Shown here piece after piece: positions 4,645 through 60,449 of a DNA stretch of 64,000 bases. Numbering within the stretch: position 1 is the stretch's first letter; every line of letters begins with the position of its first letter. Below the pieces are notes generated by a model. It did no database searches, had not been told where the DNA came from, and saw nothing but the letters and a program-made list of their open reading frames with translations. The stretch covers positions 800,001-864,000 of the forward strand of contig BK006949.2 in assembly GCA_000146045.2 (NCBI GenBank). The letters are read 5' to 3'. The stretch comes from TPA_inf: Saccharomyces. Its lineage: Eukaryota. Position numbers and translations under genes: made by a program.

Positions 4645-4978
4645 TGAGAAATGGGTGAATGTTGAGATAATTGTTGGGATTCCATTGTTGATAAAGGCTA
4701 TAATATTAGGTATACAGAATATACTAGAAGTTCTCCTCAAGGATTTAGGAATCCATAAAAGGGAATCTGCAATTCTACACAATTCTATAAATATTATTAT
4801 CATCATTTTATATGTTTATATTCATTGATCCTATTACATTATCAATCCTTGCGTTTCAGCTTCCACTAATTTAGATGACTATTTCTCATCATTTGCGTCA
4901 TCTTCTAACACCGTATATGATAATATACTAGTAATGTAAATACTAGTTAGTAGATGATAGTTGATTTCTATTCCAACA
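4645..4978 (-). repeat. 3' LTR (delta, Ty1-H3-type U3) of Ty1 copy 1
   Basis: 334 bp, identical to the 10229-10562 copy. Ends with the canonical TGTTGG...TCTCA termini in element orientation. Confidence 0.95.
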
Positions 4979-5000
4979 TACCACCCATAATGTAATAGAT

Positions 5001-8000
5001 CTAATGAATCCATTTGTTAGTTAATAGTTTAAATGTTTTTATCGGAAGAGGTTTTGTCATCACATCAGCAATGTTCTTCTTGGTCTCGATGTAGTATACG
5101 TATAGATTATTACCTGATACTTCATCTCTAAGTCTCATTGCCTTTGTGCCAAAAAATCTGTTTCTAAATTTCTCTTCATTTGTAGACTTAATTATACTGA
5201 TCGTTGATCTACTATCAGTAAGTAAGCCTTTAATAATTGGTTTCTTGTTAAGTTCTTGCACAAGGTGACTGAGGTTATTCAATAGCGGAATAGCTTCACT
5301 GACTGCGTGTATTTCTGCTTCTGTAGTTGAAGTGCATGTTAACGAAGCCTTTGTCGACTTTCCTCCAATCACTTTTCCGTTGAGTAGGAAAATGTTACCA
5401 ATTTGTGACTTGTAATATGGTTGGTTACCATATGAAGCATCGCTTATTGCGACTAGTTTATTATCTGGCTCGGTAGGTTTGTTTTTGTGCCATATCAGTT
5501 GTTTATCTCTAGTGTCCCACATGAATTGTATTAACTCATATGTCATGTCTAAAACTTGCCTAGAGGGGAATAGTATATGTTGAGCAAGTGTGTTGATGTA
5601 GTATAGTAAGTCAAATCTAAATTTATATCCAACATATGAAGCTAGACCAATCAACTTTTGCATTTCATGTACCTTCTCTTTGTATTCATCTTCATCTATT
5701 TCTAGTTCATCCTGGTCTATATAAAGACCTGGTTGACCTGGAGCGCTAAGTTTTCTTCCTTTTGGATTCAAAGGTACGTTTAATTTGGGTATTTTCTCAG
5801 TTAATGAGTTTTCCATACCTAATTTCATGTATTTACCTCTTTGATATTTGATTTCTAAGCCAAGTATGTCGTACTGAATTTCGTTATCACTTTCACCCAG
5901 ATTTATTATCTTTGTATCGTATTGTTTCTTGAGTGTTGTTATGATTTTCTTATTTGCATTTAAGTCTTTGCTGAACAATATCATATCATCAACGAATAAG
6001 CAAATTGTTACTTGACTATTCTTAAATACGCATGACCATCCACGAACTTCTTCCATACCACACTGTTTTATCAGGTATGATTTGATAGTTTCGTACCAGT
6101 TCGCTCCACTTTGTTTCAATCCATAATGTGATTTCTTCAAACGTATCAACTTATCATTCATTCCTAAATGTGGTGGAGGTCTTATGTATAATTCTTCTTT
6201 GATGTCTGCATACAAATATGCCGAAGATATGTCTAATTGTGTAATATAGTAGTTATTGTCTAATGCAAGTGACAGGGATGTCATCAACGCATAATGATGT
6301 ACAGTGTTGGATTGCATACCTGTATCGTACGTATCAGGATGCTGAATGTCACCTCTTGCAACAAATCTAGCTTTATGAGTTCCGTCACGTTTCTTGTTGA
6401 AGATAAACATTGAGTTTATTACTCTTTTAGGGTCTATTTCTTTTCTGTCATAATATTTGTCAGTGTCCCAAGTATTCATTTTCAATAGTTGGTTGACTTC
6501 TTTGTGGTATGCCTCGATATATTTTTCTTTTTCTTTAATATCTTTATTATAGGTGATTGCCTCATCGTATCGTAAGGTTGTCCGTATTGGTTTGATTGAT
6601 TTTACTGCTTTTACAGCTGCAATCAGGTGAATTCGTTTCTTCGATCTCGGAGGTTCTAAACTACGCATATTCTTAGTATTCCATGTGTCTCGTGATACCT
6701 TAATTTCAGTTTCATTATCTTCTAATGATCTTTTCTTACTGTTGATAGTAGTATAGGCATTAGAGTCACCAATACCACCCAAACTGGAATTAGTTTGATG
6801 AGAATTTATCGGTGGGAGTTCTTTAAATGGGTCAGGGAATTCGGTAGGAGATTCTGGAGGTAGATCAGGGAGTGGGAGATCAGCGATGATAGATTCCTCG
6901 GTATTCTGTTCAGAAACAGTAGTTGGCGTTTTGATAGGAACAATATTGTGCGATGAATTATTTTCCGGTGGAGAAGCATCGATTGAAGGTGAACGGTGTA
7001 TAATCCTTTTCTCAGTCTCTTGGTCACTTATCTGCGGAACAGTTTTGTTGTTGGTACCACCCGTACTGGATATTGGTACGTTTGTATGATTAGTCTCATT
7101 TTCACTGTACGAGTCTGAGTGTCTGAAATCTTTAGATTTACTGGCGTGCGACGACTCATGTGTGTTAGATTGGGACATGGGAGCAAGTAAAGGAACATTT
7201 AATTTATGCATACCACCCGAACCGGTACTCTCGATATTGGAAATTTGGGGGGTGCTAGATCTCTTCTTTGATGGAAGAATATTAGATTCAGATATGTTGG
7301 GGTCAACTTCTCTGGGTGCGCGAATATTGGTTTTAGAAACACGTTTCGAATCTTCAGTATGAGTTGACGGAGGTGTGGAATCGGTTGGACTCACAGCTTT
7401 TGAAAGGACATTTCTCGGTTGCTCAGGATGTAGTTCAATGTCGGATTGGAAGTCATGGTCAGATTCTATGTTAAGATCATTGGATTCTTGGATCTCATTT
7501 GACGCAATGAACGAATGATATGAAGCAGTTAAACGGTTTAAGTCTTCATCGAAAGTGAGTGCGTCGTAATTGAATTGATCTAATCTGGATTCCTTGCCCT
7601 GAAGAATAACATAGTTAGTTGTATCTACTGTCTTCTTTAAGGATGGAAGATAGATGATATATCCATAAGAGTTTCGAGACGGATGTAGAGCGTAGCCTGG
7701 GATGCCACGAGGATGTATTTTGGAGTTAGGGTTGTGATCATTGACGATAACAGGTTGACCGAAAGGTAACAAAGTACTGATATCAAGTCCTGCCAAGCCA
7801 GCATGTTGTCTTGCAGATTTTTTGCTTTTAGGTGAAGCTAGTGAATTTCTCACAATAGTAGAAAATTCGATTGCAGAGAACCATAAATGGTTCGGTAAAC
7901 CACTACATTGCAGTTGAGTACGGCAGTCATCTAATAAGGTACGGTTTAGCCGTTCAGCGACTCCATGTGCTCGGGAATCCGCTGTGGTTGTATAGCATGG

Positions 8001-8963
8001 AGTTATACCATTTTTTTCAAGGAATTTATGGAGAGTTCTGTTAGTATACTCAGAACCACGGTCCATTTGTATAACCAAGACACTGGCCTGAAACTGGTTT
8101 TTAATAAAAGCTAGTATCGTAGTAAAAACATCGAGGATAGAGTCCTCGCGACGGTCGTGTAATGGATAAACCCAACGGAATTTTGTTGTCTCATCAGTAA
8201 ATGAGATGAAATAGGATGGTGCACTTTTTGGTAGGTTGTGAACTGGACCAAATATGTCAGTATGTAGGTATTGAAAGGGTTCGTATGAATTTTGGTATTT
8301 TAGTCGTGAACCTTTGATATGTCTGTGTTTGGTGCTTTTGCCGATTAAACAATCAGGACATTGATAGTCAATAGCACTAGACCAGTCGACATCTGATTCG
8401 TTAAAATACGTGATGGTGTTATTTTTAAGTGAGTATCGAATTGTCTGTGCATTGGCATGCGCAAGCATTCGATGAATGAAAGGATAAGGATATTTGCGTG
8501 TACTTTCACTTGTATGGACATTATTGATGGTGGGTACGGAGATATTTGATGGAAGCAAGTACTTTTTAGATACCCAGTAAAAGTCTCCATATTTTACGAT
8601 AGGTGCAAGTACAGTGCCGTCAGACCGTTCTAAGACGTTTTTGGTAAAGCATGCTGTGATATCTACTGCAGCCAATTCATTCAAACTGAGTAAGTCATAG
8701 GCTATGTTAGGAGTGTGCAATACCTTTATTGATGTTTTGGTGTTGTCCTGGAAGTGAAATTGTAGGTCACCAATAGCGTTAATTGGTATATTTCTTTTTT
8801 GAGCATCAACTACGTTTATGTCAGGATTAGATGATGCTGAGTGTATGTGATGAGCAGATCTTATAAGGGTTCGTGATGCTCCTGAATCGAGAAGGAGGTG
8901 TCCAGGGAGTTCATCATCAGAATGATTAGTATGATTTACTGTAGATTCAGTAAGTTTCTGGCC
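5001..8963 (-). CDS. TYB: TYB (Pol: protease, integrase, RT, RNase H) of Ty1 copy 1, expressed as a Gag-Pol fusion by +1 frameshift at CTT-AGG-C
   Basis: Open frame of 1321 codons from GGC (8963-8961) to the stop at 5001. Retroviral integrase, RT and RNase H motifs (e.g. YVDDM-like [11 protein letters not shown]) are present. The 38-nt overlap with TYA is typical of Ty1. Confidence 0.9.
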
Positions 8964-10269
8964 TAAGATGAAGGTCGTGCTTATTGTTCAATTGAATCGG
9001 TTCAGTAGTTGATTTACTGATGGAATCGTTGTCCGTGCTGGGAGAGTTATTAGATGTGGATACATTGTGAGCCCTGGCTGTTTTCGATTTCGAATTATTT
9101 GTTTTTTGAGGATTCCGAGCTATAACTTTGGGTTTGGTTGTATTCGTATAGCTGCGAGAATCATTCTTCTCATCACTCGGATTTCTCCTGTAATTAGGTT
9201 TACTGTTTCTCGATCCCTGTTGTTCTTCATAAATAGCATGGATATCTAAGAACAGTTCAGCGACTGTCATATTTAGATGTCGATGACGTGTGTAGCGTAA
9301 AAATTTATATTCGCCAGATAGACCTCTCATAATTAATTGGCATGCGACCTTGTTATTGATATGAATGCCATTATTGTTCAGTCTGTCGATAATGTTTGTG
9401 ACTTTTGTTTCAAATGCATCTGCAGGTGTACTGCCATTATATTGCAAATTTGCCAGGGTCACAATGTCGTTTGCCTCTTGGGTATCAGATTGCATTTTTT
9501 CAATACTTTTGGAAAGAATTTTCATGATATCCGTATAATCAACGGATAGGATGTCTTTGACCCAGGTAGGTAGGAATTGAGAGGGAGCAAATATTTGAAA
9601 AGTGTTATACAAGAAGGTGAGTTCATCATCAGTGATCTGACGTACGGGTTTTCCGTTTACTGTCGGAATAATACCACCGAGATTCGAGTTTTGTAAAAAT
9701 TTGATGTATGTTTTAACCCAATTTGGAAAGTCATTAGGTGAGGTTAACATTGGTGGTGGTCTGACATATTTTTTAGTGGATGTCATATCAGAGTCCGCTG
9801 AGGATGAATCAGTAAATGTATTACCTGACTCAGGTGATGGAGTGCTCAGAGGCGTTCCAACTGATGATGGATACTGCGGAAACTGTGATTGTGGCCCAGG
9901 TGGAAAGTACATAGGCGACATTTGATAAGGTGTATACGGAATCATAGATGGGTGTCCGTAAAATGACCAACCAGATGGATTGGCTTGGTTTTGGGTCATC
10001 ATGCACTGCTGTGGGTACGGCCCATTCTGTGGTGAATGTGACTGAGCAGTTTGAGGAGAGGCATGATGGGGGTTCTCTGGAACAGCTGATGAAGCAGGTG
10101 TTGTTGTCTGTTGAGAGTTAGCCTTAGTGGAAGCCTTCTCACATTCTTCTGTTTTGGAAGCTGAAACGTCTAACGGATCTTGATTTGTGTGGACTTCCTT
10201 AGAAGTAACCGAAGCACAGGCGCTACCATGAGAAATGGGTGAATGTTGAGATAATTGTTGGGATTCCAT
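8947..10269 (-). CDS. TYA: TYA (Gag, 440 aa) of Ty1 copy 1
   Basis: The ATG lies inside the 5' LTR ([15 protein letters not shown]...), a canonical Ty1-H3-like Gag. It ends ...HLRPETY* with the frameshift heptamer 7 codons before the stop. Confidence 0.95.
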
Positions 10270-10562
10270 TGTTGATAAAGGCTATAATATTAGGTATACA
10301 GAATATACTAGAAGTTCTCCTCAAGGATTTAGGAATCCATAAAAGGGAATCTGCAATTCTACACAATTCTATAAATATTATTATCATCATTTTATATGTT
10401 TATATTCATTGATCCTATTACATTATCAATCCTTGCGTTTCAGCTTCCACTAATTTAGATGACTATTTCTCATCATTTGCGTCATCTTCTAACACCGTAT
10501 ATGATAATATACTAGTAATGTAAATACTAGTTAGTAGATGATAGTTGATTTCTATTCCAACA
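10229..10562 (-). repeat. 5' LTR (delta) of Ty1 copy 1
   Basis: Identical to the LTR at 4645-4978. Confidence 0.95.
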
Positions 10563-42669: not shown

Positions 42670-43261
42670 AGAACTTTATGACAACAGAATGTTCTGATTG
42701 TAATATAATGACAAATTTTAATCTTTAGTAATATCTAATATAATAGTTAATGATAAATAGTTAATTCTAATGTTTAATGATCTGCAAATACTTTTTATGT
42801 TTTTCAACATAGTTTTTAATGTGTTTCTACACTTGATCGCAACTAAATCTAAATAAACACACAAGCACAAAATATGATAAAAAAGCAATTTGGCTAGAAG
42901 CACAGGAACCAAATATGACGTTCAATTCAAATAGACCCTTATTTCTGGTCTTGTTCATCAGTCCCTGATGTCTTGCTCTTTCCTTCTGCAATTGATAGCG
43001 CCACACTTCTCAAAAGCAGTGGAAAAAAAAATCATTTCCCAGAAGAACGCGAGAGAACTCCATAGAAAAAAGGGAACTTTCCTACTCAAAAGAGAAAGGG
43101 AAAAATAATTGCGATATATCTTATAGCCTTTTTTTTTTTCCAACTTTCTATTTTTGTAAAAATGAAAATTTCCTTCATAAGCTACAATAAGACTACTCCA
43201 TCCCTTGTTTCCTCAACGCACCGAACTCGATAGGACTGGTCGTAAAACAGAAAACTGACTA

Positions 43262-44020: not shown

Positions 44021-44349
44021 GAAATACGGGCTACGGAATTTACCGTGTGTCTTCAAATTGAGTGTCACCCTGTAAGGCTTTCTACTCTATCACAAAATAT
44101 TACATATTCTAATTCTACAATTATAGATATCAAACTTGATAAATTTAGTAGCAAATATGAAGTATTATTATGCATTTCAAAAAATTCCATTGTCCCTTCT
44201 CTTGGGCGCTTGAATTCTAAAAAAAATTAGCGCATCGCTAATAGCGCGTTTGAACCCGTCTTAAGAATGTTCATACCAGTATCAACAAGGGGTATGTTCC
44301 TCAGCATTATCTGAAGGTACTCCTCTAAATTTTTAAGTAAGAAAAGGCG

Positions 44350-44411
44350 TATAGTCATATAATTGTTGGGAATCCACCACTGATAAAGGTTATAATATCA
44401 GGTAAAGAAAT
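44350..44411 (-). repeat. Left part of an old, diverged solo delta (minus orientation) split by the Ty1 copy 2 insertion; the right part is 50341-50512
   Basis: ...ataattgttgggaatccaccactgataaaggttataatatcaggtaaagaaat aligns to the + strand reading of the LTR end TGAGATAATTGTTGGGATTCCATTGTTGATAAAGGCTATAATATTAGGTATACAGAA. The left boundary is approximate. Confidence 0.55.
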
Positions 44412-44749
44412 TGTTGGAATAAAAATCCACTATCGTCTATCAACTAATAGTTATATTATCAATATATTATCATATACGGTGTTAAGATGATGACATAAGT
44501 TATGAGAAGCTGTCATCGATGTTAGAGGAAGCTGAAACGCAAGGATTGATAATGTAATAGGATCAATGAATATAAACATATAAAACGGAATGAGGAATAA
44601 TCGTAATATTAGTATGTAGAAATATAGATTCCATTTTGAGGATTCCTATATCCTCGAGGAGAACTTCTAGTATATTCTGTATACCTAATATTATAGCCTT
44701 TATCAACAATGGAATCCCAACAATTATCTAATTACCCACATATATCTCA
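44412..44749 (+). repeat. 5' LTR of Ty1 copy 2 (338 bp; U3 variant distinct from copy 1)
   Basis: TGTTGGAATAAAAATCCACTATCG...ATATATCTCA. Identical to the 50003-50340 copy. Confidence 0.93.
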
Positions 44750-46031
44750 TGGTAGCGCCTGTGCTTCGGTTACTTCTAAGGAAGTCCACACAAATCAAGA
44801 TCCGTTAGACGTTTCAGCTTCCAAAATTCAAGAATATGATAAGGCTTCCACTAAGGCTAACTCTCAACAGACAACAACACCTGCTTCATCAGCTGTTCCA
44901 GAGAACCCCCATCATGCCTCTCCTCAACCTGCTTCAGTACCACCTCCACAGAATGGGCCGTACCCACAGCAGTGCATGATGACCCAAAACCAAGCCAATC
45001 CATCTGGTTGGTCATTTTACGGACACCCATCTATGATTCCGTATACACCTTATCAAATGTCGCCTATGTACTTTCCACCTGGGCCACAATCACAGTTTCC
45101 GCAGTATCCATCATCAGTTGGAACGCCTCTGAGCACTCCATCACCTGAGTCAGGTAATACATTTACTGATTCATCCTCAGCGGACTCTGATATGACATCC
45201 ACTAAAAAATATGTCAGACCACCACCAATGTTAACCTCACCTAATGACTTTCCAAATTGGGTTAAAACATACATCAAATTTTTACAAAACTCGAATCTCG
45301 GTGGTATTATTCCGACAGTAAACGGAAAACCCGTACGTCCGATCACTGATGATGAACTCACCTTCTTGTATAACACTTTTCAAATATTTGCTCCCTCTCA
45401 ATTCCTACCTACCTGGGTCAAAGACATCCTATCCGTTGATTATACGGATATCATGAAAATTCTTTCCAAAAGTATTGAAAAAATGCAATCTGATACCCAA
45501 GAGGCAAACGACATTGTGACCCTGGCAAATTTGCAATATAATGGCAGTACACCTGCAGATGCATTTGAAACAAAAGTCACAAACATTATCGACAGACTGA
45601 ACAATAATGGCATTCATATCAATAACAAGGTCGCATGTCAATTAATTATGAGAGGTCTATCTGGCGAATATAAATTTTTACGCTACACACGTCATCGACA
45701 TCTAAATATGACAGTCGCTGAACTGTTCTTAGATATCCATGCTATTTATGAAGAACAACAGGGATCGAGAAACAGCAAACCTAATTACAGGAGAAATCCG
45801 AGTGATGAGAAGAATGATTCTCGCAGCTATACGAATACAACCAAACCCAAAGTTATAGCTCGGAATCCTCAAAAAACAAATAATTCGAAATCGAAAACAG
45901 CCAGGGCTCACAATGTATCCACATCTAATAACTCTCCCAGCACGGACAACGATTCCATCAGTAAATCAACTACTGAACCGATTCAATTGAACAATAAGCA
46001 CGACCTTCATCTTAGGCCAGAAACTTACTGA
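44709..46031 (+). CDS. TYA: TYA (Gag, 440 aa) of Ty1 copy 2
   Basis: [15 protein letters not shown]... Ty1-type Gag. The stop TGA is at 46029-46031. Confidence 0.93.
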
Positions 46032-49000
46032 ATCTACAGTAAATCATACTAATCATTCTGATGATGAACTCCCTGGACACCTCCTTCTCGATTCAGGAGC
46101 ATCACGAACCCTTATAAGATCTGCTCATCACATACACTCAGCATCATCTAATCCTGACATAAACGTAGTTGATGCTCAAAAAAGAAATATACCAATTAAC
46201 GCTATTGGTGACCTACAATTTCACTTCCAGGACAACACCAAAACATCAATAAAGGTATTGCACACTCCTAACATAGCCTATGACTTACTCAGTTTGAATG
46301 AATTGGCTGCAGTAGATATCACAGCATGCTTTACCAAAAACGTCTTAGAACGGTCTGACGGCACTGTACTTGCACCTATCGTAAAATATGGAGACTTTTA
46401 CTGGGTATCTAAAAAGTACTTGCTTCCATCAAATATCTCCGTACCCACCATCAATAATGTCCATACAAGTGAAAGTACACGCAAATATCCTTATCCTTTC
46501 ATTCATCGAATGCTTGCGCATGCCAATGCACAGACAATTCGATACTCACTTAAAAATAACACCATCACGTATTTTAACGAATCAGATGTCGACTGGTCTA
46601 GTGCTATTGACTATCAATGTCCTGATTGTTTAATCGGCAAAAGCACCAAACACAGACATATCAAAGGTTCACGACTAAAATACCAAAATTCATACGAACC
46701 CTTTCAATACCTACATACTGACATATTTGGTCCAGTTCACAACCTACCAAAAAGTGCACCATCCTATTTCATCTCATTTACTGATGAGACAACAAAATTC
46801 CGTTGGGTTTATCCATTACACGACCGTCGCGAGGACTCTATCCTCGATGTTTTTACTACGATACTAGCTTTTATTAAAAACCAGTTTCAGGCCAGTGTCT
46901 TGGTTATACAAATGGACCGTGGTTCTGAGTATACTAACAGAACTCTCCATAAATTCCTTGAAAAAAAAAATGGTATAACTCCATGCTATACAACCACAGC
47001 GGATTCCCGAGCACATGGAGTCGCTGAACGGCTAAACCGTACCTTATTAGATGACTGCCGTACTCAACTGCAATGTAGTGGTTTACCGAACCATTTATGG
47101 TTCTCTGCAATCGAATTTTCTACTATTGTGAGAAATTCACTAGCTTCACCTAAAAGCAAAAAATCTGCAAGACAACATGCTGGCTTGGCAGGACTTGATA
47201 TCAGTACTTTGTTACCTTTCGGTCAACCTGTTATCGTCAATGATCACAACCCTAACTCCAAAATACATCCTCGTGGCATCCCAGGCTACGCTCTACATCC
47301 GTCTCGAAACTCTTATGGATATATCATCTATCTTCCATCCTTAAAGAAGACAGTAGATACAACTAACTATGTTATTCTTCAGGGCAAGGAATCCAGATTA
47401 GATCAATTCAATTACGACGCACTCACTTTCGATGAAGACTTAAACCGTTTAACTGCTTCATATCATTCGTTCATTGCGTCAAATGAGATCCAAGAATCCA
47501 ATGATCTTAACATAGAATCTGACCATGACTTCCAATCCGACATTGAACTACATCCTGAGCAACCGAGAAATGTCCTTTCAAAAGCTGTGAGTCCAACCGA
47601 TTCCACACCTCCGTCAACTCATACTGAAGATTCGAAACGTGTTTCTAAAACCAATATTCGCGCACCCAGAGAAGTTGACCCCAACATATCTGAATCTAAT
47701 ATTCTTCCATCAAAGAAGAGATCTAGCACCCCCCAAATTTCCAATATCGAGAGTACCGGTTCGGGTGGTATGCATAAATTAAATGTTCCTTTACTTGCTC
47801 CCATGTCCCAATCTAACACACATGAGTCGTCGCACGCCAGTAAATCTAAAGATTTCAGACACTCAGACTCGTACAGTGAAAATGAGACTAATCATACAAA
47901 CGTACCAATATCCAGTACGGGTGGTACCAACAACAAAACTGTTCCGCAGATAAGTGACCAAGAGACTGAGAAAAGGATTATACACCGTTCACCTTCAATC
48001 GATGCTTCTCCACCGGAAAATAATTCATCGCACAATATTGTTCCTATCAAAACGCCAACTACTGTTTCTGAACAGAATACCGAGGAATCTATCATCGCTG
48101 ATCTCCCACTCCCTGATCTACCTCCAGAATCTCCTACCGAATTCCCTGACCCATTTAAAGAACTCCCACCGATAAATTCTCATCAAACTAATTCCAGTTT
48201 GGGTGGTATTGGTGACTCTAATGCCTATACTACTATCAACAGTAAGAAAAGATCATTAGAAGATAATGAAACTGAAATTAAGGTATCACGAGACACATGG
48301 AATACTAAGAATATGCGTAGTTTAGAACCTCCGAGATCGAAGAAACGAATTCACCTGATTGCAGCTGTAAAAGCAGTAAAATCAATCAAACCAATACGGA
48401 CAACCTTAAGATACGATGAGGCAATCACCTATAATAAAGATATTAAAGAAAAGGAAAAATATATCGAAGCATACCACAAAGAAGTCAACCAACTATTGAA
48501 AATGAATACTTGGGACACTGACAAATATTATGACAGAAAAGAAATAGACCCTAAAAGAGTAATAAATTCAATGTTTATCTTCAACAGGAAACGTGACGGT
48601 ACTCATAAAGCTAGATTTGTTGCAAGAGGTGATATTCAGCATCCTGACACTTACGACTCAGGCATGCAATCCAATACCGTACATCACTATGCATTAATGA
48701 CATCCCTGTCACTTGCATTAGACAATAACTACTATATTACACAATTAGACATATCTTCGGCATATTTGTATGCAGACATCAAAGAAGAATTATACATAAG
48801 ACCTCCACCACATTTAGGAATGAATGATAAGTTGATACGTTTGAAGAAATCACTTTATGGATTGAAACAAAGTGGAGCGAACTGGTACGAAACTATCAAA
48901 TCATACCTGATAAAACAGTGTGGTATGGAAGAAGTTCGTGGATGGTCATGCGTATTTAAGAATAGTCAAGTAACAATTTGCTTATTCGTTGATGATATGA

Positions 49001-49980
49001 TATTGTTCAGCAAAGACTTAAATGCAAATAAGAAAATCATAACAACACTCAAGAAACAATACGATACAAAGATAATAAATCTGGGTGAAAGTGATAACGA
49101 AATTCAGTACGACATACTTGGCTTAGAAATCAAATATCAAAGAGGTAAATACATGAAATTAGGTATGGAAAACTCATTAACTGAGAAAATACCCAAATTA
49201 AACGTACCTTTGAATCCAAAAGGAAGAAAACTTAGCGCTCCAGGTCAACCAGGTCTTTATATAGACCAGGATGAACTAGAAATAGATGAAGATGAATACA
49301 AAGAGAAGGTACATGAAATGCAAAAGTTGATTGGTCTAGCTTCATATGTTGGATATAAATTTAGATTTGACTTACTATACTACATCAACACACTTGCTCA
49401 ACATATACTATTCCCCTCTAGGCAAGTTTTAGACATGACATATGAGTTAATACAATTCATGTGGGACACTAGAGATAAACAACTGATATGGCACAAAAAC
49501 AAACCTACCGAGCCAGATAATAAACTAGTCGCAATAAGTGATGCTTCATATGGTAACCAACCATATTACAAGTCACAAATTGGCAACATATATTTACTTA
49601 ATGGAAAGGTAATTGGAGGAAAGTCCACCAAGGCTTCATTAACATGTACTTCAACTACGGAAGCAGAAATACACGCGATAAGTGAATCTGTCCCATTATT
49701 AAATAACCTCAGTCACCTTGTGCAAGAACTTAACAAGAAACCAATTACTAAAGGATTACTAACCGACAGTAAATCTACAATCAGTATAATTATATCCAAT
49801 AATGAAGAGAAATTTAGAAACAGATTTTTTGGTACTAAAGCAATGAGACTAAGAGATGAAGTATCAGGAAATCATCTGCACGTATGCTATATCGAAACCA
49901 AAAAGAATATTGCAGACGTAATGACCAAACCTCTTCCGATAAAAACATTCAAACTATTAACAAACAAATGGATTCATTAG
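46015..49980 (+). CDS. TYB: TYB (Pol) of Ty1 copy 2 via +1 frameshift at CTTAGGC (46011-46017)
   Basis: 1322-codon open frame from GGC at 46015 to the stop at 49978-49980. The ORF-track 1240-aa segment starts at an internal Met. Confidence 0.9.
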
Positions 49981-50002
49981 ATCTATTACATTATGGGTGG
50001 TA

Positions 50003-50340
50003 TGTTGGAATAAAAATCCACTATCGTCTATCAACTAATAGTTATATTATCAATATATTATCATATACGGTGTTAAGATGATGACATAAGTTATGAGAAG
50101 CTGTCATCGATGTTAGAGGAAGCTGAAACGCAAGGATTGATAATGTAATAGGATCAATGAATATAAACATATAAAACGGAATGAGGAATAATCGTAATAT
50201 TAGTATGTAGAAATATAGATTCCATTTTGAGGATTCCTATATCCTCGAGGAGAACTTCTAGTATATTCTGTATACCTAATATTATAGCCTTTATCAACAA
50301 TGGAATCCCAACAATTATCTAATTACCCACATATATCTCA
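50003..50340 (+). repeat. 3' LTR of Ty1 copy 2
   Basis: Identical to the 5' LTR. Confidence 0.93.
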
Positions 50341-50512
50341 GAAATTTTACTAGAAGTTCATTATCCTATTACTTATCAATCCTTGCATTTCAGCTTTCAT
50401 TAAATGTGCTCACTGTTTCTCAATCTTTATGCCATATTTTTGCACCGTATACGATAACATGCAAATAGTACGAATACTAATCGATATGTGATGGTTGATT
50501 CTTATTCCAACA
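50341..50512 (-). repeat. Right part of the old diverged solo delta (minus orientation) into which Ty1 copy 2 inserted
   Basis: gaaattttactagaagttcattatcctattacttatcaatccttgcatttcagc...ttattccaaca. Delta-like but about 15-20% diverged. It starts with the TSD copy GAAAT. Confidence 0.6.
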
Positions 50513-50613
50513 ATTATCTTGAACTTCAATCAACTCTCGCAGTTGTCACGTGCAATTTGATACATGTCGCGTTGATATACAAGTACTAAATACGGTACAC
50601 AATGGATTATTTC

Positions 50614-50628
50614 TGTTGTATCTCAAAA
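50614..50628 (+). repeat. First 15 bp of a Ty3 sigma LTR (TGTTGTATCTCAAAA), separated from the rest of the sigma (56555-56885) by the Ty1 copy 3 insertion
   Basis: Joining 50614-50628 to 56560 onward reconstitutes the sigma 5' end TGTTGTATCTCAAAATGAGATATGTCAG. CAAAA is duplicated at both Ty1 flanks. Confidence 0.8.
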
Positions 50629-50966
50629 TGAGAAATGGGTGAATGTTGAGATAATTGTTGGGATTCCATTGTTGATAAAGGCTATAATATTAGGTATACA
50701 GAATATACTAGAAGTTCTCCTCGAGGATATAGGAATCCTCAAAATGGAATCTATATTTCTACATACTAATATTACGATTATTCCTCATTCCGTTTTATAT
50801 GTTTATATTCATTGATCCTATTACATTATCAATCCTTGCGTTTCAGCTTCCTCTAACATCGATGACAGCTTCTCATAACTTATGTCATCATCTTAACACC
50901 GTATATGATAATATATTGATAATATAACTATTAGTTGATAGACGATAGTGGATTTTTATTCCAACA
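50629..50966 (-). repeat. 3' LTR of Ty1 copy 3
   Basis: 338 bp, reading TGAGAAATGG...TTCCAACA on the + strand. Same U3 family as the copy 2 LTRs. Confidence 0.93.
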
Positions 50967-50988
50967 TACCACCCATAATGTAATAGAT

Positions 50989-53900
50989 CTAATGAATCCA
51001 TTTGTTTGTTAATAGTTTGAATGTTTTTATCGGAAGAGGTTTGGTCATTACGTCTGCAATATTCTTTTTGGTTTCGATATAGCATACGTGCAGATGATTT
51101 CCTGATACTTCATCTCTTAGTCTCATTGCTTTAGTACCAAAAAATCTGTTTCTAAATTTCTCTTCATTATTGGATATAATTATACTGATTGTAGATTTAC
51201 TGTCGGTTAGTAATCCTTTAGTAATTGGTTTCTTGTTAAGTTCTTGCACAAGGTGACTGAGGTTATTTAATAATGGGACAGATTCACTTATCGCGTGTAT
51301 TTCTGCTTCCGTAGTTGAAGTACATGTTAATGAAGCCTTGGTGGACTTTCCTCCAATTACCTTTCCATTAAGTAAATATATGTTGCCAATTTGTGACTTG
51401 TAATATGGTTGGTTACCATACGAAGCATCACTTATTGCGACTAGTTTATTATCTGGCTCGGTAGGTTTGTTTTTGTGCCATATCAGTTGTTTATCTCTAG
51501 TGTCCCACATGAATTGTATCAACTCATATGTCATGTCTAAAACTTGCCTAGAGGGGAATAGTATATGTTGAGCAAGTGTGTTGATGTAGTATAGTAAGTC
51601 AAATCTAAATTTATATCCAACATATGAAGCTAGACCAATCAACTTTTGCATTTCATGTACCTTCTCTTTGTATTCATCTTCATCTATTTCTAGTTCATCC
51701 TGGTCTATATAAAGACCTGGTTGACCTGGAGCGCTAAGTTTTCTTCCTTTTGGATTCAAAGGTACGTTTAATTTGGGTATTTTCTCAGTTAATGAGTTTT
51801 CCATACCTAATTTCATGTATTTACCTCTTTGATATTTGATTTCTAAGCCAAGTATGTCGTACTGAATTTCGTTATCACTTTCACCCAGATTTATTATCTT
51901 TGTATCGTATTGTTTCTTGAGTGTTGTTATGATTTTCTTATTTGCATTTAAGTCTTTGCTGAACAATATCATATCATCAACGAATAAGCAAATTGTTACT
52001 TGACTATTCTTAAATACGCATGACCATCCACGAACTTCTTCCATACCACACTGTTTTATCAGGTATGATTTGATAGTTTCGTACCAGTTCGCTCCACTTT
52101 GTTTCAATCCATAATGTGATTTCTTCAAACGTATCAACTTATCATTCATTCCTAAATGTGGTGGAGGTCTTATGTATAATTCTTCTTTGATGTCTGCATA
52201 CAAATATGCCGAAGATATGTCTAATTGTGTAATATAGTAGTTATTGTCTAATGCAAGTGACAGGGATGTCATCAACGCATAATGATGTACAGTGTTGGAT
52301 TGCATACCTGTATCGTACGTATCAGGATGCTGAATGTCACCTCTTGCAACAAATCTAGCTTTATGAGTTCCGTCACGTTTCTTGTTGAAGATAAACATTG
52401 AATTTATTACTCTTTTGGGGTCTATTTCTTTTCTGTCATAATATCTGTCAGTGTCCCAAGTTTTCATCTTCAACAGTTGGTTGACTTCTTTGTGGTATGC
52501 TTCGATATATTTTTCTTTTTCTTTAATATCTTTATTATAGGTGATTGCCTCATCGTATCGTAAGGTTGTTCGTATTGGTTTGATTGATTTTACTGCTTTT
52601 ACAGCTGCAATCAGGTGAATTCGTTTCTTCGATCTCGGAGGTTCTAAACTACGCATATTCTTAGTATTCCATGTGTCTCGTGATACCTTAATTTCAGTTT
52701 CATTATCTTCTAATGATCTTTTCTTACTGTTGATAGTAGTATAGGCATTAGAGTCACCAATACCACCCAAACTGGAATTAGTTTGACGAGAATTGATCGG
52801 TGGAAGTTCTTTAAAGGAGTCTGATAATTCGGTAGGAGGTTCTGGAGGCGGATCGGGAAGTGGGAGATCAGCGATAATAGATTCCTCGGTATTCTGTTCA
52901 GAAACAGTAGTTGGCGTTTTGATAGGAACAATATTGTGCGATGAATTATTTTCCGGTGGAGAAGCATCGATTGAAGGTGAACGGTGTATAATCCTTTTCT
53001 CAGTCTCCTGGTCGCTTATCTGCGGAACAGTTTTGTTGTTGGTACCACCCGTACTGGATATTGGTACGTTTGTATGATTAGTCTCATTGTTACTGTACGA
53101 GTCTGAGTGTCTGAAATCTTTAGATTTACTGGCGTGCGACGACTCATGTGTGTTAGATTGGGACATGGGAGCAAGTAAAGGAACATTTAATTTATGCATA
53201 CCACCCGAACCGGTACTCTCGATATTGGAAATTTGGGGGGTGCTAGATCTCTTCTTTGATGGAAGAATATTAGATTCAGATATGTTGGGGTCAACTTCTC
53301 TGGGTGCACGAAGATTGATTTCAGATATAGGTTTTGAATCTTCAGTATGAGTTGACGGAGGTGTGGAATCGGTTGGACTCACAGCTTTTGAAAGGACATT
53401 TCTCGGTTGCTCAGGATGTAGTTCAATGTCAGATTGGAAGTCATGGTCAGATTCTATGTTAAGATCATTGGATTCTTGGATCTCATTTGACGCAATGAAC
53501 GAATGATATGAAGCAGTTAAACGGTTTAAGTCTTCATCGAAAGTGAGTGCGTCGTAATTGAATTGATCTAATCTGGATTCCTTGCCCTGAAGAATAACAT
53601 AGTTAGTTGTATCTACTGTCTTCTTTAAGGATGGAAGATAGATGATATATCCATAAGAGTTTCGAGACGGATGTAGAGCGTAACCTGGGATGCCACGAGG
53701 ATGTATTTTGGAGTTAGGGTTGTGATCATTGACGATAACAGGTTGACCGAAAGGTAACAAAGTACTGATATCAAGTCCTGCCAAGCCAGCATGTTGGCTT
53801 GCAGATTTTTTGCTTTTAGGTGAAGCTAGTGAATTTCTCACAATAGTAGAAAATTCGATTGCAGAGAACCATAAATGGTTCGGTAAACCACTACATTGCA

Positions 53901-54951
53901 GTTGAGTACGGCAGTCATCTAATAAGGTACGGTTGAGCCGTTCAGCGACTCCATGTGCTCGGGAATCCGCTGTGGTTGTATAGCATGGAGTTATACCATT
54001 TTTTTCAAGGAATTTATGGAGAGTTCTGTTAGTATACTCAGAACCACGGTCCATTTGTATAACCAAGACACTGGCCTGAAATTGGTTTTTAATGAAAGCT
54101 AGTATCGTGGTAAATACATCGAGGATAGAGTCCTCGCGACGGTCGTGCAATGGATAAACCCAACGGAATTTTGTTGTCTCATCAGTAAATGAGATGAAAT
54201 AGGATGGTGCACTTTTTGGTAGGTTGTGAACTGGACCAAATATGTCAGTATGTAGGTATTGAAAGGGTTCGTATGAATTTTGGTATTTTAGTCGTGAACC
54301 TTTGATATGTCTGTGTTTGGTGCTTTTGCCGATTAAACAATCAGGACATTGATAGTCAATAGCACTAGACCAGTCGACATCTGATTCGTTAAAATACGTG
54401 ATGGTGTTATTTTTAAGTGAGTATCGAATTGTCTGTGCATTGGCATGCGCAAGCATTCGATGAATGAAAGGATAAGGATATTTGCGTGTACTTTCACTTG
54501 TATGGACATTATTGATGGTGGGTACGGAGATATTTGATGGAAGCAAGTACCTTTTAGATACCCAGTAAAAGTCTCCATATTGTACGATAGGTGCAAGTAC
54601 AGTGCCGTCAGATCGTTCTAAGACGTTTTTGGTAAAGCATGCTGTGATATCTACTGCAGCCAATTCATTCAAACTGAGTAAGTCATAGGCTATGTTAGGA
54701 GTGTGCAATACCTTTATTGATGTTTTGGTGTTGTCCTGGAAGTGAAATTGTAGGTCACCAATAGCGTTAATTGGTATATTTCTTTTTTGAGCATCAACTA
54801 CGTTTATGTCAGGATTAGATGATGCTGAGTGTATGTGATGAGCAGATCTTATAAGGGTTCGTGATGCTCCTGAATCGAGAAGGAGGTGTCCAGGGAGTTC
54901 ATCATCAGAATGATTAGTGTGATTTACCGTAGATTCAGTAAGTTCCTGGCC
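50989..54951 (-). CDS. TYB: TYB (Pol) of Ty1 copy 3 via +1 frameshift
   Basis: 1321-codon open frame from GGC (54951-54949) to the stop at 50989. The integrase C-terminal variable region (…[13 protein letters not shown]…[14 protein letters not shown]…) differs from copies 1 and 2. Confidence 0.9.
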
Positions 54952-56257
54952 TAAGGTGAAGGTCGTGCTTATTGTTCAATTGAATCGGTTCAGTAGTTGA
55001 TTTACTGATGGAATCGTTGTCCGTGCTGGGAGAGTTATTAGATGTGGATACATTGTGAGCCCTGGCTGTTTTCGATTTCGAATTATTTGTTTTTTGAGGA
55101 TTCCGAGCTATAACTTTGGGTTTGGTTGTATTCGTATAGCTGCGAGAATCATTCTTCTCATCACTCAGATTTCTCCTGTAATTAGGTTTGCTGTTTCTCG
55201 ATCCCTGTTGTTCTTCATAAATAGCATGGATATCTAAGAACAGTTCAGCGACTGTCATATTTAGATGTCGATGACGTGTGTAGCGTAAAAATTTATATTC
55301 GCCAGATAGACCTCTCATAATTAATTGGCATGCGACCTTGTTATTGATATGAATGCCATTATTGTTCAGTCTGTCGATAATGTTTGTGACTTTTGTTTCA
55401 AATGCATCTGCAGGTGTACTGCCATTATATTGCAAATTTGCCAGGGTCACAATGTCGTTTGCCTCTTGGGTATCAGATTGCATTTTTTCAATACTTTTGG
55501 AAAGAATTTTCATGATATCCGTATAATCAACGGATAGGATGTCTTTGACCCAGGTAGGTAGGAATTGAGAGGGAGCAAATATTTGAAAAGTGTTATACAA
55601 GAAGGTGAGTTCATCATCAGTGATCTGACGTACGGGTTTTCCGTTTACTGTCGGAATAATACCACCGAGATTCGAGTTTTGTAAAAATTTGATGTATGTT
55701 TTAACCCAATTTGGAAAGTCATTAGGTGAGGTTAACATTGGTGGTGGTCTGACATATTTTTTAGTGGATGTCATATCAGAGTCTGCTGAGGATGAATCAG
55801 TAAATGTATTACCTGACTCAGGTGATGGAGTGCTCAGAGGCGTTCCAACTGATGATGGATACTGCGGAAACTGTGATTGTGGCCCAGGTGGAAAGTACAT
55901 AGGCGACATTTGATAAGGTGTATACGGAATCATAGATGGGTGTCCGTAAAATGACCAACCAGATGGATTGGCTTGGTTTTGGGTCATCATGCACTGCTGT
56001 GGGTACGGCCCATTCTGTGGAGGTGGTACTGAAGCAGGTTGAGGAGAGGCATGATGGGGGTTCTCTGGAACAGCTGATGAAGCAGGTGTTGTTGTCTGTT
56101 GAGAGTTAGCCTTAGTAGAAGCCTTCTCACATTCTTCTGTTTTGGAAGCTGAAACGTCTAACGGATCTTGATTTGTGTGGACTTCCTTAGAAGTAACCGA
56201 AGCACAGGCGCTACCATGAGAAATGGGTGAATAATTAGATAATTGTTGGGATTCCAT
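54935..56257 (-). CDS. TYA: TYA (Gag, 440 aa) of Ty1 copy 3
   Basis: [15 protein letters not shown]... ending ...HLRPGTY*. Confidence 0.93.
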
Positions 56258-56554
56258 TGTTGATAAAGGCTATAATATTAGGTATACAGAATATACTAGA
56301 AGTTCTCCTCGAGGATATAGGAATCCTCAAAATGGAATCTATATTTCTACATACTAATATTACGATTATTCCTCATTCCGTTTTATATGTTTATATTCAT
56401 TGATCCTATTACATTATCAATCCTTGCGTTTCAGCTTCCTCTAACATCGATGACAGCTTCTCATAACTTATGTCATCATCTTAACACCGTATATGATAAT
56501 ATATTGATAATATAACTATTAGTTGATAGACGATAGTGGATTTTTATTCCAACA
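56217..56554 (-). repeat. 5' LTR of Ty1 copy 3
   Basis: 338 bp. Contains the TYA ATG. Confidence 0.93.
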
Positions 56555-56885
56555 CAAAATGAGATATGTCAGTATGACAATACGTCATCCTGAACGTTCA
56601 TAAAACACATATGAAACAACCTTATAACAAAACGAACAACATGAGACAAAACCCGTCCTTCCCTAGCTGAACTACCCAAAAGTATAAATGCCTGAACAAT
56701 TAGTTTAGATCCGAGATTCCGCGCTTCCACCACTTAGTATGATTCATATTTTATATAATATATAAGATAAGTAACATTCCGTGAATTAATCTGATAAACT
56801 GTTTTGACAACTGGTTACTTCCCTAAGACTGTTTATATTAGGATTGTCAAGACACTCCGGTATTACTCGAGCCCGTAATACAACA
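56555..56885 (+). repeat. Ty3 sigma solo LTR (remaining 331 bp of about 341) ending 16 bp upstream of tRNA-Ala
   Basis: ...TGAGATATGTCAGTATGACAATACGTCA...CGAGCCCGTAATACAACA is a recognisable sigma sequence. Its position 16 bp 5' of the mature tRNA end is the canonical Ty3 target at the Pol III start site. Confidence 0.85.
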
Positions 56886-56901: not shown

Positions 56902-56974
56902 GGGCGTGTGGCGTAGTCGGTAGCGCGCTCCCTTAGCATGGGAGAGGTCTCCGGTTCGATTCCGGACTCGTCCA
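56902..56974 (+). tRNA. tRNA-Ala (anticodon AGC)
   Basis: 73-nt sequence GGGCGTGTGGCGTAGTCGGTAGCGCGCTCCCTTAGCATGGGAGAGGTCTCCGGTTCGATTCCGGACTCGTCCA. Contains the G3:U70 alanine identity pair and a B box GGTTCGATTCC. A T-run follows. Confidence 0.93.
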
Positions 56975-60378: not shown

Positions 60379-60449
60379 GCGCAAGTGGTTTAGTGGTAAA
60401 ATCCAACGTTGCCATCGTTGGGCCCCCGGTTCGATTCCGGGCTTGCGCA
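60379..60449 (+). tRNA. tRNA-Gly (anticodon GCC)
   Basis: 71-nt sequence GCGCAAGTGGTTTAGTGGTAAAATCCAACGTTGCCATCGTTGGGCCCCCGGTTCGATTCCGGGCTTGCGCA. The acceptor stem pairs (GCGCAAG/CTTGCGC). A T-run follows. Confidence 0.93.

What the first reader, a model, noticed from the sequence alone, without database searches (positions are those of the whole stretch)
44412..56554. Tail-to-tail inverted Ty1 pair 288 bp apart: a roughly 12-kb quasi-palindrome and candidate fragile site
Copy 2 (+) and copy 3 (-) face each other through their 3' LTRs with only 288 bp (50341-50628) between them. Their inward-facing 3' halves are the most similar parts: same LTR family, and the same pol 3' end (...NIYLLNGK...[11 protein letters not shown]...). 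Closely spaced inverted Ty1 pairs are known to form hairpin/cruciform intermediates on the lagging strand and to act as double-strand-break and translocation hotspots when replication is perturbed (the FS2-type fragile site on chromosome III).
Basis: partly seen in the sequence, partly recalled or inferred. Interest (0 to 1): 0.6.

Follow-up and report, generated by a model that had tools for sequence, protein, structure and literature searches.

The report
Known inverted Ty1 pair, yeast chrXVI
This is the already annotated pair of back-to-back Ty1 retrotransposons (YPRWTy1-3 and YPRCTy1-4) on chromosome XVI of the yeast reference strain S288C: a real 12-kb near-palindrome made by two separate insertions next to a tRNA gene, which looks like a known fragile site but has never been shown to break.

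Summary
Ty1 copy 2 (+, 44412-50340) and copy 3 (-, 50629-56554) lie tail-to-tail, 288 bp apart. The arms are 98.45% identical overall and 99.0% identical over the innermost 1 kb.

The window is S. cerevisiae S288C chrXVI 800,001-864,000, and the elements are the annotated YPRWTy1-3 and YPRCTy1-4. The literature already calls them "inverted" and reports them as borders of chromosome rearrangements.

Each element has its own perfect 5-bp target-site duplication (GAAAT, CAAAA), intact Gag and Gag-Pol, and (near-)identical LTRs. Other strains carry the exact empty site, or copy 2 alone. So these are two independent, recent insertions upstream of tRNA-Ala(AGC). Copy 2 landed in an old delta; copy 3 landed later in a sigma-like solo LTR. 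This is not a fold-back duplication.

The fragile-site reading is plausible by analogy with FS2 (two inverted Ty1s, 283-bp spacer), but it is untested:
- W303-1A, one parent of the W303 x YJM789 mapping diploids, lacks YPRCTy1-4.
- In S288C-derived wild-type cells, 0 of 112 Ty-mediated rearrangements involved XVI-R, against 11 at FS2.

Verdict: a real but already known structure. Its fragility is an inference. Low interest.

The parts
44412..50340 (+). Left arm: full-length Ty1 element YPRWTy1-3 (5929 bp). 5' LTR 44412-44749, primer-binding site 44750-44759, Gag 44709-46031, +1 frameshift site CTTAGGC 46011-46017, Pol frame 46015-49980, 3' LTR 50003-50340.
   Evidence: The two LTRs are identical at 338/338 positions. 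PBS is TGGTAGCGCC, Gag is 440 aa and Gag-Pol 1756 aa, both open. Pfam gives TYA, then Pol_BBD, rve, RVT_2 in Ty1/copia order. Coordinates equal SGD 844412-850340.
44407..44411 (.). Target-site duplication GAAAT, left copy, of YPRWTy1-3. The right copy is at 50341-50345.
   Evidence: Read directly from the sequence. Removing the element plus one copy restores the empty allele found in other strains.
50341..50628 (.). 288-bp spacer. It consists of the TSD GAAAT (50341-50345), 167 bp of an old degenerate delta in minus orientation (50346-50512, probably YPRCdelta22), 101 bp of unique DNA (50513-50613), and the first 15 bp of a sigma-like solo LTR (50614-50628, including the TSD CAAAA at 50624-50628).
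   Evidence: On its own the spacer is no more structured than shuffled sequence (z = 0.2). The literature places YPRCdelta22 between the two Tys.
50629..56554 (-). Right arm: full-length Ty1 element YPRCTy1-4 (5926 bp). 3' LTR 50629-50966, Pol frame 50989-54951, frameshift site 54949-54955, Gag 54935-56257, 5' LTR 56217-56554.
   Evidence: The LTRs differ at 3 clustered positions. Gag is 440 aa and Gag-Pol 1755 aa, both open. Same Pfam domains as the left arm. Its Gag is an exact match to 'Transposon Ty1-PR3 Gag' of S288C. Coordinates equal SGD 850629-856554.
56555..56559 (.). Target-site duplication CAAAA, right copy, of YPRCTy1-4. The left copy is at 50624-50628.
56560..56885 (+). Remainder of the 341-bp sigma-like solo LTR (TGTTG...CAACA) that YPRCTy1-4 split. 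It ends 16 nt before the tRNA.
   Evidence: Present or absent among strains, with flanks ATTTC/ATTTA. Calling it sigma (a Ty3 LTR) rests on these hallmarks plus my recollection of the sigma sequence.
56902..56974 (+). tRNA-Ala(AGC) gene, the RNA polymerase III gene whose upstream region was the target of all these insertions.
   Evidence: ARAGORN. In empty-site coordinates, the insertion points lie 342 bp (copy 3) and 625 bp (copy 2) upstream of it.
44351..44411 (-). Left 61-bp remnant of the old delta into which YPRWTy1-3 inserted.
   Evidence: BLAST of the LTRs against the reconstructed empty site: 80-82% identity to LTR positions 250-324.
4645..10562 (-). YPRCTy1-2, the third Ty1 of the window (TSD AATTA). 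It is a direct repeat of the right arm 40 kb away and an inverted repeat of the left arm 34 kb away. It is the documented recombination partner of the pair.
   Evidence: 96.2-96.4% identity to the pair. Literature.

Best explanation
The feature is the annotated inverted pair YPRWTy1-3 / YPRCTy1-4 of S. cerevisiae S288C, chromosome XVI 844,412-856,554. It arose from two independent, recent Ty1 integrations into the insertion-prone region upstream of the tRNA-Ala(AGC) gene. An old delta and then a sigma-like LTR were already there. YPRWTy1-3 inserted into the old delta. YPRCTy1-4 later inserted, in the opposite orientation, into the start of the sigma. The opposite orientation is a matter of chance, and the structure has no selected function. 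Its consequence is structural. It is a 12.1-kb quasi-palindrome (5.9-kb arms, 98.45% identical, 288-bp spacer), and both arms serve as homology for non-allelic recombination with other Ty1s; that role is documented. It is also the closest structural twin of fragile site FS2 in the annotated reference. I infer that when long single-stranded stretches are exposed at a slowed fork, the arms could pair into a hairpin and be cut, giving a break repaired through Ty homology. I put this at roughly 45% likely to be detectable under low polymerase alpha. In unperturbed cells it appears not to be a hotspot.
For: - Structure.
- Element ends and two different perfect 5-bp target duplications.
- Identity of the locus: exact matches to S288C TDA6, CUR1, KRE6 and Ty1-PR3 Gag. 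The published SGD coordinates equal window coordinates + 800,000.
- Independent insertions and their order: the reconstructed 1697-bp empty site occurs contiguously at 99.6% in L009 and L010, and at 99.2% with small indels in L007; five further assemblies have the same CUR1-KRE6 spacing. Alleles with copy 2 only occur in L006 and L011, with copy 2 100% identical, and in W303-1A. Alleles lacking the sigma occur in L001, L003 and L008. An independent assembly, L017, has both elements at 99.99%.
- Youth and integrity: LTRs identical (copy 2) or differing at 3 positions (copy 3), Gag and Gag-Pol open, Ty1/copia domain order.
- Recombination substrate: borders of duplications and triplications, break-induced replication events and translocations, and a 40-kb deletion between YPRCTy1-2 and YPRCTy1-4 in the S288C background.
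- Hairpin potential: a single strand spanning the centre folds into a continuous stem (-222 kcal/mol for 200-nt arms, z = -35).
- Precedent: FS2.
Against: Nothing contradicts the identity or the origin. Against the fragility part:
- XVI-R was the duplicated arm in 0 of 112 wild-type Ty912-mediated rearrangements in S288C-derived strains, whereas FS2 accounted for 11.
- The chrIV inverted Ty pairs are not hotspots under low polymerase alpha, so similar architecture does not guarantee FS2-like behaviour.
- The 288-nt spacer plus about 20 nt of diverged tip on each arm means over 330 nt must be single-stranded before any stem can nucleate.
- No paper in the searchable library reports breaks at this site. 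Several key papers were not held.
Confidence: 0.85

Rival explanations
1. The pair is a constitutively active fragile site. It forms a hairpin or cruciform and breaks at an appreciable rate even in unperturbed cells, like FS2 and the chrIV hotspots HS3 and HS4.
For: It has the same architecture as FS2: Ty1/Ty1, with a 288-bp spacer against 283 bp. HS3 and HS4 show that inverted Ty pairs can be spontaneous hotspots. YPRWTy1-3 was a translocation target three or more times across wild-type and mutant isolates. XVI-R duplications rise in msh2, rtt109 and rlf2 mutants.
Against: XVI-R was involved in 0 of 112 wild-type rearrangements, against 11 at FS2 in the same strains. HS3 and HS4 have much shorter spacers, about 100 bp and 25-66 bp. 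Both target duplications and the spacer orientation are intact, so no crossover between the arms has become fixed. An independent S288C-like assembly is 99.99% identical across the centre.
Confidence: 0.12
2. The palindrome arose in one step as an inverted (fold-back) duplication of a single Ty1, rather than by two insertions.
For: The arms are highly similar and symmetric, with a short spacer.
Against: The two elements have different perfect target duplications, GAAAT and CAAAA. The 92 differences are clustered in patches, and the U5 ends differ. The spacer is ordinary intergenic DNA, colinear with empty alleles. Alleles with copy 2 only exist.
Confidence: 0.01
3. The near-identity of the inner 1.5 kb reflects gene conversion between the arms after insertion. 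This would be a sign of ongoing arm-to-arm interaction.
For: There are only 2 mismatches in element positions 4444-5909, against about 2% divergence elsewhere.
Against: Copy 2 is 100% identical in strains that lack copy 3, so copy 2 was not converted. Positions 4501-5000 are identical in all three Ty1s of the window, including the distant copy 1. Copy 3's inner LTR is less like copy 2 (8 differences) than its outer LTR is (5 differences). Patchy mosaicism is what recombination during reverse transcription would be expected to produce (my own knowledge).
Confidence: 0.07
4. The pair is an assembly artefact of a repeat-rich region.
For: Ty elements are often mis-assembled, and chrIII of the reference is known to lack Tys that are present in S288C stocks.
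Against: Nanopore re-sequencing of S288c lists both elements at these coordinates. Array and qPCR copy-number borders map to the pair. An independent assembly, L017, has copy 2, the spacer and 3.4 kb of copy 3 at 99.99%.
Confidence: 0.01

Closest known systems
Fragile site FS2 on S. cerevisiae chromosome III (an inverted Ty1 pair replacing YCRWdelta11)
   Same: Both are two full-length Ty1 elements in inverted orientation, with a spacer of about 280 bp (283 bp at FS2, 288 bp here). Both are able in principle to fold into a hairpin with a roughly 6-kb stem. Both lie in Ty/LTR-rich DNA and are present in S288C-derived strains.
   Different: FS2 is head-to-head (Crick then Watson); this pair is tail-to-tail. 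FS2 is experimentally shown to break under low polymerase alpha and delta, to be stabilised by a 1.8-kb spacer, and to be a translocation hotspot in wild type (11 of 112). This pair has no such evidence and was hit 0 of 112 times. FS2 is missing from the SGD reference annotation, whereas this pair is annotated.
HS3 and HS4 on chromosome IV (YDRWTy2-2/YDRCTy1-2 and YDRWTy2-3/YDRCTy1-3)
   Same: Both are tail-to-tail (Watson then Crick) inverted full-length Ty pairs that are polymorphic between strains.
   Different: The chrIV pairs are Ty2/Ty1 with much shorter spacers, about 100 bp and 25-66 bp. They are G1-associated spontaneous crossover hotspots but are not hot under low polymerase alpha. 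The chrXVI pair is Ty1/Ty1 with a 288-bp spacer and is untested.
Nested Ty/LTR clusters upstream of tRNA genes (the Ty1 integration window and Ty3 position-specific integration)
   Same: A solo delta, a sigma-like LTR ending 16 nt before the tRNA, and two Ty1s lie 342 and 625 bp upstream. Each has a 5-bp target duplication. Other strains carry further independent insertions at the same tRNA.
   Different: Nothing of substance differs. This is a typical example, and the inverted orientation of the two newest insertions is the only notable outcome.

Membership tests
Full-length Ty1 (Ty1/copia LTR retrotransposon), each arm | Direct LTRs of about 334-338 bp with TG...CA termini, flanked by a 5-bp target-site duplication | tested here: met
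   338-bp LTRs with TGTTGG...TCTCA termini. TSDs are GAAAT/GAAAT and CAAAA/CAAAA.
Full-length Ty1 (Ty1/copia LTR retrotransposon), each arm | Primer-binding site TGGTAGCGCC next to the 5' LTR, and a purine tract before the 3' LTR | tested here: met
   TGGTAGCGCC lies immediately after LTR position 338 in both elements, and ...TGGGTGGTA precedes the 3' LTR. That the site matches initiator tRNA-Met is from my own knowledge.
Full-length Ty1 (Ty1/copia LTR retrotransposon), each arm | Gag (TYA), and Pol reached by a +1 frameshift at CTTAGGC; domain order protease, integrase, reverse transcriptase | tested here: met
   Gag is 440 aa and Gag-Pol 1756/1755 aa, open through CTTAGGC at element position 1600. 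Pfam gives TYA, then Pol_BBD, rve, RVT_2 in that order. Gag sequences match annotated S288C Ty1 Gag proteins exactly.
FS2-type inverted-Ty fragile site | Two full-length Ty elements in inverted orientation with highly similar arms | tested here: met
   5.9-kb arms, 98.45% identical, with perfect blocks up to 772 bp.
FS2-type inverted-Ty fragile site | Short spacer (about 280 bp at FS2; activity is lost at about 1.8 kb) | tested here: met
   The spacer is 288 bp, or about 330 nt if the diverged 20-bp tips are counted.
FS2-type inverted-Ty fragile site | Double-strand breaks or rearrangement hotspot at the site when replicative polymerase is limiting | not testable with these tools
   This needs experiments. 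No report was found. W303-1A, one parent of the W303 x YJM789 mapping diploids, lacks YPRCTy1-4.
FS2-type inverted-Ty fragile site | Preferred target or initiator of Ty-mediated rearrangements in wild-type cells | tested here: not met
   Tested through the literature only: XVI-R was involved in 0 of 112 wild-type GCRs against 11 at FS2, in S288C-derived strains. It is used in mutants and in secondary events.
FS2-type inverted-Ty fragile site | Activity depends on the inverted arrangement (lost when one element is deleted or the spacer is enlarged) | not testable with these tools
   Natural alleles with copy 2 only exist (W303-1A, L006, L011) and would serve as controls.
tRNA-upstream Ty integration hotspot | Insertions lie within several hundred bp upstream of an RNA polymerase III gene, and there are multiple independent events | tested here: met
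   Copies 3 and 2 lie 342 and 625 bp upstream of tRNA-Ala in empty-site coordinates. There is also an old delta and a sigma-like LTR 16 nt upstream. Other strains carry a Ty2-like element or a solo LTR 161 bp upstream.

The most novel reading that the evidence does not exclude
This pair could be a lineage-restricted, conditionally active twin of FS2. It is present in S288C and one S288C-like assembly and absent from W303-1A and the other 17 assemblies sampled. Breaks at its centre could seed recurrent XVI-R events, including the 40-kb YPRCTy1-2/YPRCTy1-4 deletion now used as a reporter for RNA:DNA-hybrid-driven instability. That preprint never mentions the inverted arrangement. The contrast between FS2 (hot in wild type) and this near-identical architecture (cold in wild type) would then expose what else an inverted repeat needs in order to be fragile: orientation, origin proximity, or the adjacent tRNA gene.
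Probability: 0.3. Interest if true: 0.35.

Novelty: already known. Interest (0 to 1): 0.15.

Why it matters
It matters little as a discovery. The elements are in the reference annotation, the literature already calls them an inverted pair, and the hairpin/fragile-site model for such pairs has been established for FS2 since 2005.

There are three practical points:
- This is the only annotated Ty1/Ty1 inverted pair in the S288C reference list, and the closest match to FS2 in arm type and spacer.
- It appears never to have been tested for fragility, because W303-1A, one parent of the W303 x YJM789 mapping diploids, lacks one arm.
- People who use this locus should know that an inverted partner sits 288 bp away. 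The 40-kb Ty1-2/Ty1-4 deletion reporter is one example.

Natural alleles with one arm or no arms give ready-made controls.

Tried and rejected
- **Fold-back duplication origin:** rejected because of the two different target duplications, the patchy divergence and the intermediate alleles.
- **Assembly artefact:** rejected.
- **Gene conversion homogenising the inner arms:** no support.
- **A structured or functional spacer:** it folds no better than shuffled sequence. It consists of an old delta remnant, unique DNA and the tip of the sigma.
- **Literature evidence for breaks at this site:** I found only recombination-partner usage, no break mapping.
- **Papers not held:** four identifiers were not in the library. 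They were for Song 2014, Casper 2009, Lemoine 2008 and, by my attribution, Argueso 2008. Lemoine 2005 has no PMC identifier, so I did not try it. I therefore cannot exclude that one of them mentions this locus.
- **Replication context:** an exact ARS consensus match lies at 42793-42803, 1.6 kb to the left, and an origin named ARS1626.5 exists on chrXVI. I could not confirm its coordinates, so fork direction through the pair is left open.
- **Two papers checked for XVI breakpoints at the pair**: nothing specific.

Full report

Yes, to the base. A repeat scan of 40-60 kb finds inverted arms 44412-46967/53999-56554 (99% complementary) and 46964-50340/50629-54005 (98%), with 288 nt between the inner ends. 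A global alignment of 44412-50340 against the reverse complement of 50629-56554 has 92 differing columns in 5929: 89 substitutions and one 3-bp indel, or 98.45% identity.

Counting outward from the spacer, identity is as follows:

| Proximal stretch | Identity |
|---|---|
| 1 kb | 99.0% |
| 1.5 kb | 99.3% |
| 2 kb | 98.4% |
| 3 kb | 98.0% |

The two longest perfect blocks, 772 and 594 bp, both lie in the proximal 1.5 kb.

Two details need correcting:
- The inner (3') halves are not the most similar parts of this pair. The distal half is 98.9% identical and the proximal half 98.0%. Only the innermost 1.5 kb stands out.
- The last 20 bp at the inner LTR tips carry 8 mismatches, so the effective unpaired centre is about 330 nt rather than 288.

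The quoted Pol peptides are present in both copies.

**2. What and where is it?**

The flanking ORFs translate to proteins identical to S. cerevisiae S288C TDA6 (41266-42669), CUR1/YPR158W (43262-44020) and KRE6/YPR159W (57583-59745). The Gag of the right-hand element is identical to 'Transposon Ty1-PR3 Gag'.

A published table of Ty elements gives these coordinates:
- YPRCTy1-2 at chrXVI 804645-810562
- YPRWTy1-3 at 844412-850340
- YPRCTy1-4 at 850629-856554

These are exactly the window coordinates plus 800,000. The finding is therefore the annotated pair YPRWTy1-3/YPRCTy1-4. The same table reports nanopore re-sequencing of S288c and lists both elements at these positions.

**3. Anatomy.**

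Both arms are complete Ty1 elements:
- 338-bp LTRs with TG...CA ends.
- The primer-binding site TGGTAGCGCC directly after the 5' LTR.
- A 440-aa Gag.
- The CTTAGGC +1 frameshift site at element position 1600.
- An open Gag-Pol of 1756 aa (copy 2) or 1755 aa (copy 3).
- Pfam domains TYA, then Pol_BBD, integrase core and RVT_2, in Ty1/copia order.

Copy 2's two LTRs are identical (338/338). Copy 3's differ at three adjacent positions. Both are therefore young and probably still competent to transpose.

Each element has its own perfect 5-bp target duplication: GAAAT at 44407-44411 and 50341-50345, and CAAAA at 50624-50628 and 56555-56559.

The 288-bp spacer consists of:
- the GAAAT copy;
- 167 bp of an old, internally deleted delta in minus orientation, 74-82% identical to modern LTRs. 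Its other 61 bp lie left of copy 2 at 44351-44411;
- 101 bp of unique DNA;
- the first 15 bp of a 341-bp sigma-like solo LTR. The rest of this LTR continues to the right of copy 3 (56560-56885) and ends 16 nt before tRNA-Ala(AGC) at 56902-56974.

The literature names YPRCdelta22 as lying between the two Tys.

**4. How it arose.**

Removing both elements and one copy of each target duplication leaves a 1697-bp CUR1-KRE6 intergenic region. I sampled 19 other assemblies (20 loci; two loci come from the same assembly). The allele classes were:

| Allele | Loci |
|---|---|
| Empty site, aligned contiguously (99.6%; L007 99.2% with small indels) | L009, L010, L007 |
| Same 1697-bp CUR1-KRE6 spacing (judged by gene positions only) | L012, L013, L016, L018, L019 |
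| Sigma also absent (flanks ATTTC/ATTTA) | L001, L003, L008 |
| Copy 2 only, same site, 100% identical, flanks essentially S288C | L006, L011 |
| Both elements, 99.99% identical across 42262-54020 | L017 |
| Ty2-like element or solo LTR at a third position, 161 bp upstream of the tRNA | L002/L014, L005, L004 |
| Other variants, not followed up | L015, L020 |

W303-1A is also listed with YPRWTy1-3 but without YPRCTy1-4.

The order of events is therefore old delta, then sigma, then YPRWTy1-3, then YPRCTy1-4. All occurred in the region upstream of one tRNA gene, 342 and 625 bp from it in empty-site coordinates. That this region is a preferred Ty1 target, and that Ty3 inserts right at RNA polymerase III start sites, is established knowledge that I am recalling, not testing.

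A one-step fold-back duplication is excluded by three observations: the two different target duplications, the patchy pattern of differences, and the intermediate alleles. The matched target duplications and the unchanged spacer orientation also show that no crossover between the arms has been fixed.

I see no sign of arm-to-arm gene conversion:
- Copy 2 is unchanged in strains that lack copy 3.
- Element positions 4501-5000 are identical in all three Ty1s of the window.
- Copy 3's inner LTR is less like copy 2 than its outer LTR is.

**5. What it does.**

*Shown.* A single strand spanning the centre folds into one continuous stem (200-nt arms: -222 kcal/mol, z = -35 against shuffles). The spacer alone is unstructured (z = 0.2).

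*Documented in the literature* for S288C-derived strains, the pair serves as homology for rearrangements:
- A 91-kb XVI-R duplication bordered by 'YPRWTy1-3, YPRCdelta22, YPRCTy1-4', with YPRWTy1-3 hit three or more times across wild-type and mutant isolates.
- A YPRCTy1-4 junction in a fold-back GCR.
- A 40-kb deletion between YPRCTy1-2 and YPRCTy1-4. It is Rad52-dependent and Rad51/Pol32-independent, and is now used as a reporter.

*Inferred.* By analogy with FS2, long single-stranded regions at a slowed fork could let the arms pair into a hairpin. Cleavage would give a break repaired through Ty homology. FS2 consists of two inverted Ty1s about 280-283 bp apart, breaks under low polymerase alpha, and is stabilised when the spacer is raised to about 1.8 kb.

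**6. Evidence bearing on fragility at this particular site.**

I found no report of breaks here. There are three relevant facts:
- The mitotic-recombination mapping described in the papers I could read used W303a x YJM789 diploids, and W303-1A lacks YPRCTy1-4. The genome-wide low-polymerase maps, which I recall used the same cross, were not held. Such maps would not have contained the pair.
[quoted passage not shown] In the same strains FS2 accounted for 11 and FS1 for 17. XVI-R events appear in msh2, rtt109 and rlf2 mutants.
- The two inverted Ty2/Ty1 pairs on chrIV are spontaneous G1 hotspots but are not hot under low polymerase alpha, which the authors themselves call puzzling.

So architecture is not a reliable predictor. 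I put the chance that this pair shows FS2-like breakage under polymerase limitation at about 45%. I put the chance that it is a significant hotspot in unperturbed cells at about 12%.

The title of a 2009 paper on FS2, seen only in reference lists, states that aberrations from breaks there are independent of Mre11p and Sae2p.

**7. Comparison with known systems.**

The published S288c table lists these close inverted Ty pairs:

| Location | Elements | Gap | Orientation |
|---|---|---|---|
| chrIV 871-884 kb | Ty2/Ty1 | 522 bp annotated (about 100 bp by the authors' count) | tail-to-tail |
| chrIV 981-993 kb | Ty2/Ty1 | 24 bp | tail-to-tail |
| chrVII 811-823 kb | Ty2/Ty1 | abutting | tail-to-tail |
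| chrXVI 844-857 kb | Ty1/Ty1 | 288 bp | tail-to-tail |
| chrIII FS2 (not annotated in SGD) | Ty1/Ty1 | 283 bp (about 270 bp by the table) | head-to-head |

The chrXVI pair is thus the only annotated Ty1/Ty1 pair and the closest to FS2 in arm type and spacer. It differs from FS2 in orientation and in lacking any experimental evidence of fragility. As a member of 'Ty1', each arm passes every structural test. As a member of 'FS2-type fragile sites', it passes the structural criteria, fails the one functional criterion for which published data exist, and is untested on the rest.

**8. Novelty and verdict.**

The structure is already known: it is annotated, named and described as inverted in print. 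The most interesting residue has three parts. The twin of FS2 seems never to have been tested. It was found only in S288C and one S288C-like assembly, and natural one-arm and no-arm alleles are available as controls. A current deletion reporter sits on it without the inverted partner being considered (the words 'inverted' and 'Ty1-3' do not occur in that text). Interest is low.

Noticed in passing
window 4586-4718: A plus-oriented solo-delta fragment (4586-4638) and the 3' LTR of YPRCTy1-2 (4666-4718) form a 53-nt inverted repeat, 94% complementary, with only 27 nt between the arms. Copy 1 also landed inside an older LTR, which creates a short-spacer inverted LTR junction.
   Followed up: partly
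window 4645-10562: YPRCTy1-2 (minus strand, TSD AATTA, intact Gag and 1755-aa Gag-Pol) lies 113 bp from tRNA-Asn(GTT) at 10675. It is 96.2-96.4% identical to the pair. Its LTRs and last 900 bp belong to a different subfamily: 106 positions differ in 5001-5929 where copies 2 and 3 agree. It is a direct repeat of the right arm, which makes it the substrate of the published 40-kb deletion, and an inverted repeat of the left arm.
   Followed up: partly
window 50629-50966 versus 56217-56554: The two LTRs of YPRCTy1-4 differ only at three clustered positions (LTR 319, 321, 322). At those positions the outer 5' LTR matches copy 2 and the inner 3' LTR does not. A cluster like this is not independent point mutation. 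More likely it is a template switch during reverse transcription or a very short conversion patch.
   Followed up: no
window 46960-46962 (element positions 2550-2552 of copy 2): Copy 2 has an extra AAA (Lys) codon relative to copies 1 and 3, giving a Gag-Pol of 1756 aa instead of 1755.
   Followed up: no
window 50614-50628 plus 56560-56885; loci L001, L003, L008: The 341-bp sigma-like solo LTR that ends 16 nt before tRNA-Ala is itself polymorphic. Three assemblies lack it and show the unduplicated target (ATTTC).
   Followed up: yes
L002/L014, L005, L004 (about 161 bp upstream of tRNA-Ala): Other strains carry a different, Ty2-like full-length element (minus strand, 83-88% identical to the Ty1 arms) or a solo LTR at a third position inside the sigma. 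L015 and L020 show further variants. The same tRNA has therefore been hit repeatedly and independently.
   Followed up: partly
window 42793-42803: An exact match to the 11-bp ARS consensus (TTTTATGTTTT) lies in the TDA6-CUR1 intergenic region, 1.6 kb left of the pair. An early-firing origin named ARS1626.5 exists on chrXVI (literature), but I could not confirm that it is this site.
   Followed up: partly
window about 59975 (chrXVI 859975), upstream of tRNA-Gly(GCC) at 60379: According to a published SK1 Ty map, strain SK1 carries a Ty1 between KRE6 and GPH1 at this position, where S288C has none. This is another tRNA-linked insertion polymorphism within the window.
   Followed up: no
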